Assembly (NCBI GenBank): GCA_045632945.1 | Contig: JAZQXU010000037.1 | Location: 95,369 to 159,368 of the forward strand | DNA from: Faecalimonas sp. | GTDB lineage: Bacteria > Bacillota > Clostridia > Lachnospirales > Lachnospiraceae | Direction of reading: 5' to 3' | Length of the DNA: 64,000 nucleotides | Shown here: positions 3,463 through 6,348 of the stretch, one piece after another | How positions within the stretch are numbered: the first letter of the stretch is position 1 | Layout: every line of letters begins with the position of its first letter | Translations under genes and position numbers: made by a program | The notes under the pieces: generated by a model | Databases searched by the model: none | What the model was told of the DNA's origin: nothing | The model's input: only the letters and a program-made list of their open reading frames with translations

Positions 3463-4364
3463 TGTATCTTCTCCTTTACAACGCCTTTTTCCACCAAAAA
3501 GGCCGGGCGATAGGAAAGTTTCGCCTTGCGTAGTCCTTCTGCACCGGTGTCTTCCTCTCTGTTAATATATTTATACTGCATACATTCATGTTCTATGAAC
3601 TGCTGATTGATCATCGGATACGCGCCTTGTATATCTGCAAAAGCTTTCTCTATATGCACTACAAACGTATCTTCACTAATTGGTTCGCCAATTGTAAAAG
3701 CAACTACCTCGCCGTCGATTTTAAGCACACCGCCAGTTAATTCCAATTCTTTAAACAAACGTAATGCGTTCAAGGTTACGCACATCTCTGCATTTTTCTC
3801 GTGATTTTCATCGCATTCGTTATCATTGCGCCATTTCAGTGCCATCTGAAAACATTCTTCCAAATTTTCTTCTGACATTGTCTCATAGCTCCAATTGTCA
3901 TATGTCGCCTTGAACTTATTGATATGATTACGCTTCGCATGAAGCTTCTTTCCTGATAACGTAGCTAGCCTTTCAGATTCATATATATAATCAGCAATGT
4001 CTCTGTCGTACTCTATCTCAAATTGGTTTGGATACCACTCATCAAGTTGTGTAAACTGTTCCTCCGTAATATGATACAGCATAAACGGAAGGTTTCGTTC
4101 CTTCGCATCTGCCATTAAACACTCAAGCGCTTTTTTTACATTTTCCGATTGACCGACCGGATAGGTGTATGCTTCTCCTCCACGGCTCAGCGAACGAAAA
4201 ACCAATGTATGTTCTACCTCTGCAAACGTGACCGGATAATGTCTGGACCACAAAAGTGAATTTGCAAATGTTCTCTCACAGCTCCTGCTCGGAAACTGCC
4301 TAAAATACTTATGCATCATTTCCCGGTCTTCTAATTCCGTTCGCTTGAACTGTATATCTTTCAA
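3459..4364 (-). CDS. DUF2156 / aminoacyl-phosphatidylglycerol synthase-like GNAT-fold protein
   Basis: LSGKKLHAKRNHINKF, HIEKA, INREEDTGAEGLRKAKLSYRP motifs. Confidence 0.9.
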   Translation of the reverse strand: MKDIQFKRTELEDREMMHKYFRQFPSRSCERTFANSLLWSRHYPVTFAEVEHTLVFRSLSRGGEAYTYPVGQSENVKKALECLMADAKERNLPFMLYHITEEQFTQLDEWYPNQFEIEYDRDIADYIYESERLATLSGKKLHAKRNHINKFKATYDNWSYETMSEENLEECFQMALKWRNDNECDENHEKNAEMCVTLNALRLFKELELTGGVLKIDGEVVAFTIGEPISEDTFVVHIEKAFADIQGAYPMINQQFIEHECMQYKYINREEDTGAEGLRKAKLSYRPAFLVEKGVVKEKIQ

Positions 4365-4488
4365 AATTCCATCTCCTTGTTTCTGTCATTATTATCAATC
4401 AAAGTGTTCAGTAGATAGTATAACACGACACACACATGAATACCACACAAAAACTAAACATGTAAATCTAAAATATTCTTTTTATGAC

Positions 4489-4517
4489 TTGAACCAAGAA
4501 CATATGTTTGTTATAAT
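4489..4517 (+). promoter_or_regulatory. SigA-type promoter of the small toxin gene
   Basis: TTGAAC (4489-4494), 17 nt, TATAAT (4512-4517), with extended -10 TG at 4509-4510. Confidence 0.8.
4497..4510. promoter_or_regulatory. LexA (SOS/Cheo) box candidate
   Basis: AGAACATATGTTTG fits the Firmicutes GAAC-N4-GTTY consensus and lies in the -35/-10 spacer. Confidence 0.65.
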
Positions 4518-4638
4518 ATATTCAGGTGCTACCTCACATTGACGTGTGACTGGCGGTTTGCTTCTTGCGGAGAGTTCATAGCTCCGATTACATAGATTTC
4601 ATCCCTTCGGGGAAATCTTGGAAAGGAGAACTAGTCAT

Positions 4639-4740
4639 ATGCTTACCATAAGTGACCTCATAACTGTAATTGCACTTTGTGCTACTTTTTATAGTCTTGG
4701 TTATCTGCATGGGCAGCATGATTCCAAGACGCAAAAATAA
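4639..4740 (+). CDS. 33-aa hydrophobic peptide, putative type I toxin (holin-like)
   Basis: SD GAAAGGAG at 4621-4628; MLTISDLITVIALCATFYSLGYLHGQHDSKTQK is one TM segment with a polar tail; below the ORF track cut-off. Confidence 0.8.
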   Translation: MLTISDLITVIALCATFYSLGYLHGQHDSKTQK

Positions 4741-4774
4741 CCGCCCTGTCCTGACAAACTTGGCGGTTATTTTT
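4733..4774. terminator. Bidirectional intrinsic terminator overlapping the toxin stop codon
   Basis: 13-bp perfect inverted repeat AAAAATAACCGCC / GGCGGTTATTTTT. Confidence 0.8.
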
Positions 4775-4822
4775 AATAACTAAAAACATATCAGGCGAAC
4801 CGTCATCGGTAGCACCTTTCTA
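4733..4822 (-). ncRNA. Putative antisense antitoxin RNA (~90 nt)
   Basis: Convergent promoter at 4828-4856; transcript would end at the shared hairpin 4733-4774 with a U-tract; ends approximate. Confidence 0.65.
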
Positions 4823-4827
4823 CCATT

Positions 4828-4856
4828 ATACTAACACTGTTTTTCTATTCTGTCAA
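4828..4856 (-). promoter_or_regulatory. SigA-type promoter of the antisense RNA
   Basis: Minus strand TTGACA (4856-4851), 17 nt, TAGTAT (4833-4828) with TG extension; overlapping TATAAT at 4830-4825. Confidence 0.75.
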
Positions 4857-4974
4857 ACACATATCCTATTTTCTATTCAAGTCTACATTTGTTGATATAT
4901 ACCGGGTAATTTCCCCATACAGATTGGATGTTGCAATTTTTGCAACACCCAAGAATTTCTCTAATTCACCTGTT

Positions 4975-6348
4975 TTACATTTTTTCTTCTTTTTTCTTCT
5001 GTTTTTCTAACTTTTTCTGTGCTTTGCGTTTTCTCGCCTCATGTCTACTTTTGCGACTTGCCACGAAATAAATCAAGGAAATCGACAATATAATAACTAA
5101 CGCGCCTAATCCCGCAATAGCATACATATAATACTCACTTGGGAAAAGTGTTTTTTCCTCAATGACTTCTTCTACCTCTTCTTCCACATATTCTTTGTAG
5201 AGTTGAAGGCTATTTTCTGTTTTTTCATATTGATAAACCACCTTTTCGCCAAATTCATTCATGACTAAAATATGAATATAGTTGGCGTAATCCGGGTTCT
5301 CATACGTCCAGCCATATAACGTAGTTCCATCAATGGTAACTTCAGAATATACCATGTTCTCTCGAACCTGTTCTTCTGCTGATAAATCATACACTATAAC
5401 ATTTCTACCCAAAAGCGAAACCGGTCGGAATACAGAAGTAATACCTTGAACACTGTCATAGATATAGAAATTCTTATCCCCCGATTCATTTACTAAATAA
5501 AGAAGTGTTTTATCAAATTGATTACTATGATATGCTTGTACTTCTTGACCTTCTATAGTAATAGTAGTCTGCTCAAACGATGCCGGAATTCCGATATTTG
5601 TTTGATTTCTCACAACGCCTAAGTTTTGATTGTTATGTGTTACATATACAAACGGTGTTTCATCTACATAAATATCCACCTTATATGTTTTCTGACTACC
5701 ATTTTCTGCAGTACACACAATGTCAAACGGATTGTGCCCCGGAACCAATGTTTTTTCACCTGTTCCTGACACAGTAGCCTTTGCATGATTTGCCTTTGCG
5801 TCCAACACAATCTTTTCTGTCGTTCCTGCAACATTAACACTATATTCTGTCGTTGCGGCATTAAATTCCGGAGTTAATGTTCCTTCCGAAACGGTTAACG
5901 ATGATAATGTGTTGTCTTTCGATTTAGTAACGGTTGTATGATTATTGTTATTATTGTTATTTGATGTTGAAGTTTTCTTTTTCACAGTAACGCTTGCGCT
6001 GGCAGCTTCTTCGGTCTCTGAATCATAATTAGCACCTACTCCGCTAACAGAAACTACACAAGTATCACCTGTAAGTTTAATTTTTGCACTTGTTGCTTCT
6101 CCTCGGTCAAGGGAGGTGTTACCCAATCCAGACACCACAGTTCCGCCTGTTACGTTTAGTTTGATATCGGCCACAAAATAGTTGCTTGCCGCTTTAACCG
6201 TAACTGTAAAAGTTCCTCCGGAAGAAACCTGTGATGCACTCGCCGATATACTTAGACCACCTGCGGCTTGCGTATCCATTTTAAGACTCACAGTCATTAA
6301 AATGAGTGCAACAAAAATATACAATACTTTTTTCATTTTTTTCTTCAT
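4975..6348 (-). CDS. Surface protein with cohesin-like N-terminus, cadherin-like beta-sandwich domain and C-terminal TM anchor
   Basis: Signal peptide; SASQVSSGGTFTVTV; KDNTLSSLTVSEGTLTPEF...EYSVNV (cadherin-like); C-terminal TM helix and basic tail. Confidence 0.8.
   Translation of the reverse strand: MKKKMKKVLYIFVALILMTVSLKMDTQAAGGLSISASASQVSSGGTFTVTVKAASNYFVADIKLNVTGGTVVSGLGNTSLDRGEATSAKIKLTGDTCVVSVSGVGANYDSETEEAASASVTVKKKTSTSNNNNNNNHTTVTKSKDNTLSSLTVSEGTLTPEFNAATTEYSVNVAGTTEKIVLDAKANHAKATVSGTGEKTLVPGHNPFDIVCTAENGSQKTYKVDIYVDETPFVYVTHNNQNLGVVRNQTNIGIPASFEQTTITIEGQEVQAYHSNQFDKTLLYLVNESGDKNFYIYDSVQGITSVFRPVSLLGRNVIVYDLSAEEQVRENMVYSEVTIDGTTLYGWTYENPDYANYIHILVMNEFGEKVVYQYEKTENSLQLYKEYVEEEVEEVIEEKTLFPSEYYMYAIAGLGALVIILSISLIYFVASRKSRHEARKRKAQKKLEKQKKKEEKM

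What the first reader, a model, noticed from the sequence alone, without database searches (positions are those of the whole stretch)
4497..4510. LexA box inside the toxin promoter: candidate SOS-induced TisB/DinQ analogue in a Clostridia bacterium
Seen: AGAACATATGTTTG lies between the -35 and -10 and covers the extended -10 TG. Established: Firmicutes LexA binds GAAC-N4-GTTY, and the E. coli type I toxins TisB and DinQ are LexA-controlled membrane peptides, TisB promoting persistence. Inference: DNA damage derepresses this toxin while the antitoxin promoter, with no good box, stays constitutive. That would be an SOS-coupled dormancy switch, which I do not know to be described in Lachnospiraceae.
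Basis: partly seen in the sequence, partly recalled or inferred. Interest (0 to 1): 0.85.

Follow-up and report, generated by a model that had tools for sequence, protein, structure and literature searches.

The report
SOS-boxed toxin-antitoxin family in Lachnospiraceae
A DNA-damage (LexA) repressor motif sits inside the promoter of an unannotated 33-residue hydrophobic peptide gene facing a predicted antisense RNA, at the same spot in over half of its relatives, so DNA damage likely switches on a probable growth-arresting toxin, a circuit we found described only in E. coli.

Summary
Observation confirmed. AGAACATATGTTTG (4497-4510) lies in the 17-bp spacer of a sigma-A promoter upstream of a 33-aa hydrophobic ORF with a convergent antisense promoter. 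A matrix from relatives' recA/lexA operators ranks it 3rd of 1,882,624 genome positions, above the uvrB and dinB-like sites. The peptide belongs to an unnamed, chromosomal Lachnospiraceae family (51 of 400 genomes). 54 of 95 homologous promoters carry a box in the same register, against 0 of 91 antitoxin promoters in that register. The boxes vary with compensating changes: 47 of 53 are exactly one mismatch from the palindrome. A blind search for this promoter geometry gave 21 sites: 6 from this family, most others at repair/SOS-type genes. The mRNA has a covarying 5'-3' helix. LexA control is therefore likely (about 0.88). Toxicity (about 0.75) and dormancy (about 0.3) are untested. lexA is missing from this 84%-complete assembly, probably a gap. 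Ten literature searches found no LexA-controlled type I system in Firmicutes.

The parts
4489..4494 (+). -35 hexamer TTGAAC of the peptide (toxin) promoter
   Evidence: TTG kept in most homologous promoters
4497..4510 (.). LexA-type operator AGAAC-ATAT-GTTTG in the 17-bp spacer, ending on the extended -10 TG
   Evidence: 17.1 bits, rank 3 of 1,882,624; same register in 54 of 95 homologues; compensating changes
4512..4517 (+). -10 hexamer TATAAT
4524..4820 (+). predicted toxin mRNA, about 295 nt (start and end inferred)
   Evidence: fold z -6.2; identical RNA-library contig over 4568-4817; a relative's 275-nt RNA-library contig spans 4531-4812; ends not measured
4525..4564 (+). 5' arm of the long-range 5'-3' helix (GGTGCTACC ... 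GGCGGTTTGC)
   Evidence: pairs with 4793-4817; 16 of 21 pairs show changes on both sides across 59 homologues
4568..4586 (+). CGGAG (4568-4572) / CTCCG (4582-4586) hairpin; CTCC is a candidate anti-Shine-Dalgarno
   Evidence: one pair switches GC/AU in 14 of 59; predicted partner swap between nascent and full-length mRNA
4622..4628 (+). Shine-Dalgarno AAAGGAG
   Evidence: sequence
4639..4740 (+). 33-aa hydrophobic peptide ORF (putative type I toxin); invariant G21 and G25, basic KTQK tail
   Evidence: 122 homologous ORFs; codon-position variability 0.14/0.12/0.37 and 19-residue hydropathy peak 1.75; alignment
4733..4774 (.). hairpin AAAAATAACCGCC / GGCGGTTATTTTT over the stop codon; predicted terminator of the antisense RNA
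4733..4822 (-). predicted antisense (antitoxin) RNA, about 90 nt, complementary to the mRNA 3' region; begins with the same GGTGCTACC as the mRNA
   Evidence: convergent promoter found in 91 of 95 homologues; fold; not shown transcribed
4793..4817 (+). 3' arm of the 5'-3' helix (also the template of the antitoxin 5' end)
4828..4856 (-). antisense promoter TTGACA-17-TAGTAT with TG
4854..4867 (-). degenerate operator-like site over the antitoxin -35 (AGGATATGTGTTTG, 5.3 bits); 9-14.5 bits at this position in 17 of 51 boxed homologues

Best explanation
The 14-mer is likely a functional LexA operator that represses the promoter of a probable type I toxin, so DNA damage would raise this mRNA above a predicted antisense RNA and would let a 33-aa membrane peptide slow or stop growth. 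Shown: the operator motif, its position between -35 and -10, its rank, its conservation in register, the coding signature of the ORF, the convergent promoter and the covarying 5'-3' helix. Inferred steps: (1) LexA bound in the spacer blocks RNA polymerase; (2) RecA-triggered LexA cleavage frees the promoter; (3) the nascent mRNA is silent because CUCC pairs with the Shine-Dalgarno, and it becomes translatable only when the 3' end pairs with the 5' end and redirects CUCC to CGGAG; (4) the antisense RNA, whose 5' end copies the mRNA 5' end, takes the 3' end away, re-closes the ribosome site and invites RNase III, as SR4 does for bsrG; (5) the peptide inserts as one helix (GxxxG) and arrests growth.
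For: Rank 3 of 1,882,624, above the uvrB (15.8 bits) and dinB-like (16.0) sites and below recA (18.4). GAAC-N4-GTTC is the top dyad upstream of 29 of 29 parsed recA genes, and GAAC-N4-GTTT is the top dyad in the peptide promoters (36 of 95). lexA promoters of the genus carry near-identical GAACAAATGTTTG boxes. 54 of 95 homologues have a box in the same register, with bimodal scores, against 0 of 91 antitoxin promoters. Among 35 non-redundant boxed loci (median transcript identity 0.68), half-sites are 0.87 identical against 0.33-0.36 for flanks; 30 of 35 have exactly one mismatch (two or more mismatches: 4 vs 8.3 shuffled; perfect: 1 vs 6.2). 15 of 53 boxed promoters give up the extended -10 TG but keep the operator. 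Blind geometry search in 201 genomes: 21 sites, control 0; 6 precede this family and 9 precede uvrB, dinB-like (2), addB, a LexA-like S24 gene, LysM genes (2), a radical-SAM/HhH gene or DUF5131. Neighbouring genes differ at every locus examined, so the box travels with the cassette. Other small-toxin families mostly lack it: Hol_Tox 1 of 30 at 11 bits or more; MSTYEE-type 3 of 30 at 9 bits or more. RNA structure: 21 of 36 pairs with both-side changes, 0 of 500 shuffles as high. GAAC-N4-GTTT is the C. difficile lexA/recA operator (PMC4234289, passages).
Against: No binding, induction or toxicity data. A full-length lexA is not in this assembly; its whole neighbourhood is missing too and 29 of 36 genus genomes have it, so a gap is likely but not proven. 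41 of 95 homologues lack the box, although 9 of 10 box-less genomes tested have lexA, so SOS control is dispensable for the family. The matrix was trained on sites picked by similarity to GAAC-N4-GTTC, so it is partly circular. Homologues are related, so shuffle P-values overstate. The predicted opening of the Shine-Dalgarno is modest (median unpaired 0.04 to 0.13; higher in 40 of 57). Family transcripts appear in gut RNA libraries with no recorded treatment, which would need basal expression or box-less relatives. A looser pattern also hits genes with no SOS look.
Confidence: 0.65

Rival explanations
1. LexA control is real, but the peptide is a target-specific SOS effector (for example a SidA/YneA-like brake on division, or a BsrG-like envelope disturber), not a TisB-like depolarising dormancy toxin.
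For: The peptide has an invariant G21-x3-G25 motif and no conserved charged residue in the middle of the helix. BsrG neither dissipates membrane potential nor lowers ATP (PMC10730256, passages). No family match to TisB or DinQ.
Against: A dedicated antisense RNA and a multi-layer translation lock imply a product that is harmful at low dose. These genomes already have a separate YneA-like LysM gene next to lexA or behind similar boxes (the YneA label is recalled).
Confidence: 0.17
2. The cassette is a self-maintaining addiction or suicide module; the LexA box makes it kill heavily damaged or phage-infected cells rather than put them to sleep.
For: Patchy distribution (51 of 400 genomes). Unrelated insertion sites, including between gyrB and gyrA and between hsdM and hsdS. 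Tandem copies occur. The box label changes at least 8-10 times on the tree.
Against: No match in 50,697 phage or 72,556 plasmid records. Only 1 intact ORF among 5 viral-contig pattern hits, and it has no box. No mobile-element genes were named among 38 flanking ORFs.
Confidence: 0.1
3. The locus is a LexA-controlled small RNA/peptide unit whose peptide is not toxic; the 'antitoxin' is only a regulator.
For: No toxicity data. No Pfam, NCBIfam or PHROG toxin match; the only Atlas link to a toxin family is a 0.82 hit to a cluster with 15% Hol_Tox members.
Against: Size, hydropathy, charged C-terminus, convergent 3'-overlap layout and 5'-3' helix all match Gram-positive type I systems (PMC6563280, PMC8594479, passages). 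The terminator region resembles that of loci hit by the Rfam BsrG model.
Confidence: 0.05
4. The match is a by-product of an AT-rich promoter with an extended -10, inherited by descent and not bound by LexA.
For: GAAC-N4-GTTY occurs 79 times in the assembly. The final TG is also a promoter element. No full lexA in the assembly.
Against: Half-site conservation 0.87 against 0.33-0.36 in flanks, compensating substitutions, and loss of TG in favour of GTTC. 1 of 993 promoter-like sites. The same geometry precedes uvrB and dinB-like genes.
Confidence: 0.03

Closest known systems
E. coli tisB/IstR-1 and dinQ/AgrB (also symE/SymR, hokE/SokE)
   Same: Small hydrophobic peptide behind a LexA operator, with an antisense antitoxin and a translation-locked mRNA (PMC11951105 section 25; PMC5848175, PMC8309996 passages).
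   Different: Unrelated peptide, Firmicutes-type operator (GAAC-N4-GTTY), and an antitoxin that overlaps the 3' end convergently instead of lying 5' and non-overlapping (PMC8594479 passages). In the E. coli systems only the toxin is SOS-regulated (PMC11951105); here 17 of 51 boxed loci also have a weaker box on the antitoxin promoter. The LexA-controlled IstR-2 RNA does not repress tisB (PMC11264685 passage).
B. subtilis bsrG/SR4 and txpA/RatA (Gram-positive 3'-overlap type I systems)
   Same: Convergent genes overlapping at their 3' ends; an antitoxin that binds far from the start and could re-close the ribosome site (PMC4147584 passages); similar AAAAATAACCGCC hairpin in loci hit by Rfam BsrG.
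   Different: No Rfam BsrG hit on this locus or on 15 homologous loci. No Hol_Tox match. Not in prophages. Reported regulators are temperature, ResD and sigma-B, not LexA (PMC6563280 passages).
C. difficile type I systems (CD2517.1-RCd8 and others) and the C. difficile LexA regulon
   Same: Clostridial convergent small-toxin loci; the same GAAC-N4-GTTT operator at lexA and recA (PMC4234289 passages).
   Different: Those systems are sigma-B or c-di-GMP linked and mostly prophage or CRISPR associated; the review has 0 occurrences of 'LexA'.

Membership tests
Firmicutes LexA regulon | GAAC-N4-GTTY operator scoring like known SOS operators of the lineage | tested here: met
   17.1 bits, rank 3 of 1,882,624; training median 16.6
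Firmicutes LexA regulon | Operator overlaps promoter elements and is conserved in homologues | tested here: met
   54 of 95 in the same register; same geometry at uvrB and dinB-like genes
Firmicutes LexA regulon | Intact lexA and recA in the genome | tested here: inconclusive
   recA present; full lexA not in the 83.8%-complete assembly and its neighbours are missing too; present in 12 of 13 other boxed genomes
Firmicutes LexA regulon | LexA binding and induction by DNA damage | not testable with these tools
   needs EMSA and RT-qPCR
Type I toxin-antitoxin system | Small hydrophobic ORF under coding constraint | tested here: met
   108 distinct peptides of 27-34 aa, median 19-residue hydropathy peak 1.98; third codon positions vary most
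Type I toxin-antitoxin system | Antisense RNA gene complementary to the mRNA | tested here: inconclusive
   convergent promoter and terminator conserved; contigs cannot show strand
Type I toxin-antitoxin system | Structured mRNA that locks translation | tested here: met
   covarying 5'-3' helix; Shine-Dalgarno predicted paired in nascent RNA
Type I toxin-antitoxin system | Toxicity of the peptide and rescue by the RNA | not testable with these tools
   needs expression tests
TisB / DinQ families | Sequence homology and 5' non-overlapping antitoxin | tested here: not met
   no such family among Pfam/NCBIfam/PHROG hits of 36 members; 3'-overlap layout
TxpA/BsrG or Hol_Tox (PF16935) | Profile match (Pfam Hol_Tox, Rfam BsrG) | tested here: not met
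   0 of 36 members hit Hol_Tox at E 0.05; no Rfam BsrG hit on the window or on 15 family loci

The most novel reading that the evidence does not exclude
Lachnospiraceae invented an SOS-coupled type I toxin independently of E. coli, and tuned it: the toxin operator is held one mismatch from perfect, and in a third of boxed loci a second, always weaker operator sits on the antitoxin promoter. Mild damage would then raise the antitoxin first and only heavy damage would release the toxin, a damage-threshold switch that decides growth arrest and recovery of major gut commensals under DNA-damaging drugs.
Probability: 0.3. Interest if true: 0.85.

Novelty: new variant of a known kind. Interest (0 to 1): 0.7.

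Why it matters
The papers I could read list SOS-controlled type I toxins only for E. coli, where TisB links DNA damage to persistence. An unrelated family with the same logic in Lachnospiraceae would show convergent evolution of damage-triggered growth arrest in Gram-positive bacteria. It gives a concrete, testable candidate for how major gut and rumen commensals respond to DNA-damaging drugs. Natural boxed, box-less and double-boxed variants, some in cultured species (boxed: Butyrivibrio hungatei, Waltera intestinalis; box-less: Coprococcus comes), supply built-in controls.

Tried and rejected
Rfam: nothing on window 4300-5000. Among 20 loci, only BsrG hits on three loci of other toxin families, a tRNA and two sub-threshold hits. 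Pfam, NCBIfam and PHROGs: only weak generic hydrophobic matches below cut-off. Atlas: unnamed clusters only, best named lead 0.82. Phage and plasmid collections: no match. The idea that the box serves the divergent upstream gene (PF09924, 133 bp away) was rejected because flanking genes differ at every homologous locus while the box keeps its register. The idea that box loss follows lexA loss was rejected: 9 of 10 box-less genomes have lexA. The idea that LexA boxes are general in Lachnospiraceae type I toxins was rejected (1 of 30 Hol_Tox, 3 of 30 MSTYEE-type). Co-occurrence of toxin and antitoxin boxes (17 of 51 vs 0 of 37) is not significant once relatedness is handled: only 7-8 independent pairs, median p 0.5-1. 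Transcript ends from RNA contigs were not used: contigs in run X19 (library not on record, probably DNA) break at the same places (4570, 4746, 4817), and lack of cover over the promoter proves nothing. Single-sequence folding of truncated window mRNAs gave no clear on/off switch. Earlier scan findings by place and sequence held nothing on this family.

Full report
Observation. The window reads TTGAAC (4489-4494), CA, AGAACATATGTTTG (4497-4510), T, TATAAT (4512-4517). The 14-mer therefore fills most of a 17-bp sigma-A spacer and ends on the extended -10 TG. Downstream lie a Shine-Dalgarno (4622-4628), a 33-codon ORF (4639-4740), a hairpin over its stop codon (4733-4774) and a convergent promoter on the minus strand (TTGACA 4856-4851, TAGTAT 4833-4828). 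The unit sits between a PF09924 gene and a cadherin-like surface-protein gene, both on the minus strand. It is single-copy in the assembly.

Is it more than chance? The bare consensus GAAC-N4-GTTY occurs 79 times in the 1.88-Mb assembly, so the match alone proves little. I collected upstream regions of recA (30 genus loci, 29 parsed) and lexA (30 loci from genus and order). All 29 recA regions contain GAAC-N4-GTTC, which is also their top dyad in an unguided count. A matrix from the 65 distinct sites within one mismatch of that consensus scores the window site 17.1 bits (training median 16.6). That is rank 3 of 1,882,624 positions, after the recA box (18.4) and one unidentified intergenic site, and ahead of the sites before a dinB-like gene (16.0) and uvrB (15.8); those gene names come from inspecting the translations. 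The matrix is partly circular because its training sites were picked by consensus. Of 993 TTG-N20-TAnnnT promoter-like sites in the assembly, only this one has a box of 9 bits or more in this register.

Is LexA there? The assembly (83.8% complete) has recA but no full-length lexA, only a 77-aa HTH-only ORF beside a dinB-like gene. The genes that flank lexA in ten genus relatives are also absent, apart from weak paralog hits, and 29 of 36 genus genomes have full lexA. An assembly gap is the likely reason. lexA is present in 12 of 13 other genomes with a boxed copy and in 9 of 10 with a box-less copy.

The family. The peptide has relatives in 51 of 400 genomes of the family. From 153 loci I recovered 122 ORFs. 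116 were distinct and had enough upstream DNA, and 95 gave a confident promoter call. 21 were dropped, three of which show box-like sites at other distances. The ORF behaves as coding (non-consensus fraction by codon position 0.14/0.12/0.37 in 36 equal-length CDSs) and hydrophobic, with invariant G21 and G25. It has no credible Pfam, NCBIfam, PHROG or Rfam family; the one named cluster member is 'uncharacterised'. It was not found in phage or plasmid records. The longest flanking ORFs of 19 loci (38 ORFs) are mostly ordinary chromosomal genes, different at each locus.

Conservation of the box. 54 of 95 promoters have a site of 9 bits or more ending one base before the -10. Scores are bimodal: 39 below -6, two at 5.5 and 8.6, and 54 from 11.4 to 22.3. 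0 of 91 antitoxin promoters have one in that register. In 35 non-redundant boxed loci (median transcript identity 0.68) the half-sites are 0.87 identical, the central four bases 0.66, and the flanks 0.27-0.36. There are 27 different 14-mers, and 30 of 35 (47 of all 53) are exactly one mismatch from the palindrome: when the left half or the G of the right half changes, the last base usually reverts to C. Column shuffles expect 8.3 sites with two or more mismatches (4 seen) and 6.2 perfect sites (1 seen). Relatedness and the 9-bit cut-off inflate these contrasts, but the pattern is what selection on operator strength predicts. 15 of 53 boxed promoters lose the extended -10 TG while keeping the operator, so the promoter element does not explain the match. 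On a tree of 90 transcribed regions (promoters excluded; 5 loci without a clear 3' arm left out) the box label changes 10 times; gain and loss cannot be told apart.

Unbiased control. Searching 201 family genomes for the geometry TTG-N6-GAAC-N4-RTTYG-N-TATAAT gave 21 sites in 19 genomes and 0 for the reversed control. Six precede this peptide family (the window included). The others precede uvrB, two dinB-like genes (one by Pfam, one by inspection), addB, a peptidase-S24 gene, two LysM genes, a radical-SAM/HhH gene, DUF5131, two IS1595 transposases and four unassigned ORFs. A looser pattern in 47 genus genomes gave 15 sites, including several genes with no SOS look. Two other small-toxin-like families mostly lack a box: Hol_Tox, 1 of the 30 best loci at 11 bits or more (of 97 genomes with hits), and the MSTYEE type, 3 of 30 at 9 bits or more anywhere in 200 nt.

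The antitoxin promoter. At this locus the best site is 5.3 bits, overlapping the -35. In the family, 17 of 51 boxed loci against 0 of 37 box-less loci have a site of 9 bits or more there, mostly GAAT-N4-GTTT, and it is weaker than the toxin box in 17 of 17 (medians 12.4 vs 17.1). The independent-pairs test has too few pairs to confirm the association. It qualifies 'constitutive antitoxin' and suggests a two-threshold design, which remains a hypothesis.

RNA anatomy. The predicted mRNA folds with z -6.2. Across 59 non-redundant homologues the 5'-3' helix, the CGGAG/CUCCG hairpin and the stop-codon hairpin are 94.6% paired, and 21 of 36 pairs change on both sides (0 of 500 shuffles; slid controls 4-8). 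Folding each homologue predicts that CUCC pairs with the Shine-Dalgarno in nascent RNA (median 0.61) and moves to the upstream GGAG in full-length RNA (median 0.66); Shine-Dalgarno access rises in 40 of 57, but only from a median 0.04 to 0.13. RNA-library contigs identical to the window cover 4568-4817 and 4569-4746 (two runs, one study), and a relative's 275-nt contig spans 4531-4812 in another study. Contigs show neither strand, level nor ends, and DNA carry-over is not excluded.

Mechanism. Most likely LexA sits in the spacer and blocks the promoter. Damage removes it, mRNA exceeds the roughly 90-nt antisense RNA, full-length folded mRNA is translated, and the peptide arrests growth (overall 0.65; LexA control alone about 0.88; toxicity about 0.75; a dormancy or persistence role about 0.3). 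The rivals are a target-specific SOS effector, a suicide or addiction module, a non-toxic peptide, and chance.

What is known. LexA-controlled type I toxins are described for E. coli: tisB, dinQ, symE and hokE, with only the toxin SOS-regulated (PMC11951105, passages and section 25; PMC5848175, PMC8309996, PMC4147584, PMC11264685, passages). For Gram-positives, the review of clostridial type I systems and the review of Gram-positive small proteins have 0 occurrences of 'LexA' (PMC6563280, PMC10730256, passages). The operator GAAC-N4-GTTT/C is documented in C. difficile (PMC4234289, passages). T1TAdb describes the 3'-overlap layout as the Gram-positive type (PMC8594479, passages). Family motifs were not found in 8 supplementary files of PMC2887945; one file could not be searched. 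Ten full-text searches (listings read) showed no LexA-controlled type I system in Firmicutes and no description of this family. The library lacks most subscription papers and bioRxiv supplements, so an earlier mention is possible. The labels YneA, SidA and SulA are recalled, not tested.

Verdict. It works like tisB/dinQ in regulation, is built like bsrG/txpA, and belongs to neither. New variant of a known kind; interest 0.7.

Noticed in passing
L001:1489-1722 (G000:C26:11048-11260): 77-aa LexA-like ORF with only the DNA-binding domain, between a dinB-like gene and an 83-aa ORF; similar short matches occur in G007, G013 and G036.
   Followed up: partly
L014:143-340 (G011:C231): A locus of a different small-toxin-like family (MSTYEE type) has a LexA-type box in the same register; 30 relatives mostly lack one, so it may be an independent single gain.
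   Followed up: yes
L279:419-1462 and L284:1566-2618: IS1595-family transposase genes start behind the same LexA-boxed promoter geometry, with a second box-like site just downstream.
   Followed up: partly
L071 and L057: Copies of the cassette sit inside operons, between gyrB and gyrA and between hsdM and hsdS; how it moves is unexplained.
   Followed up: no
G000:C14:98306, C5:89885, C40:9724, C10:62212: Other high-scoring intergenic operator-like sites (14.9-18.2 bits) whose target genes were not identified.
   Followed up: partly
L024-L048 (lexA upstream regions of the genus): lexA promoters carry three to four operator-like sites, with a YneA-like ORF next to lexA in several loci (label recalled).
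   Followed up: no
L009, L010, L012: Other Clostridia loci share the AAAAATAACCGCC hairpin and match Rfam BsrG (L012 above the gathering score), pointing to a shared terminator module across toxin families.
   Followed up: partly
L065, L075, L086, L133, L136, L156-L158: Tandem or clustered copies of the cassette in single genomes.
   Followed up: no
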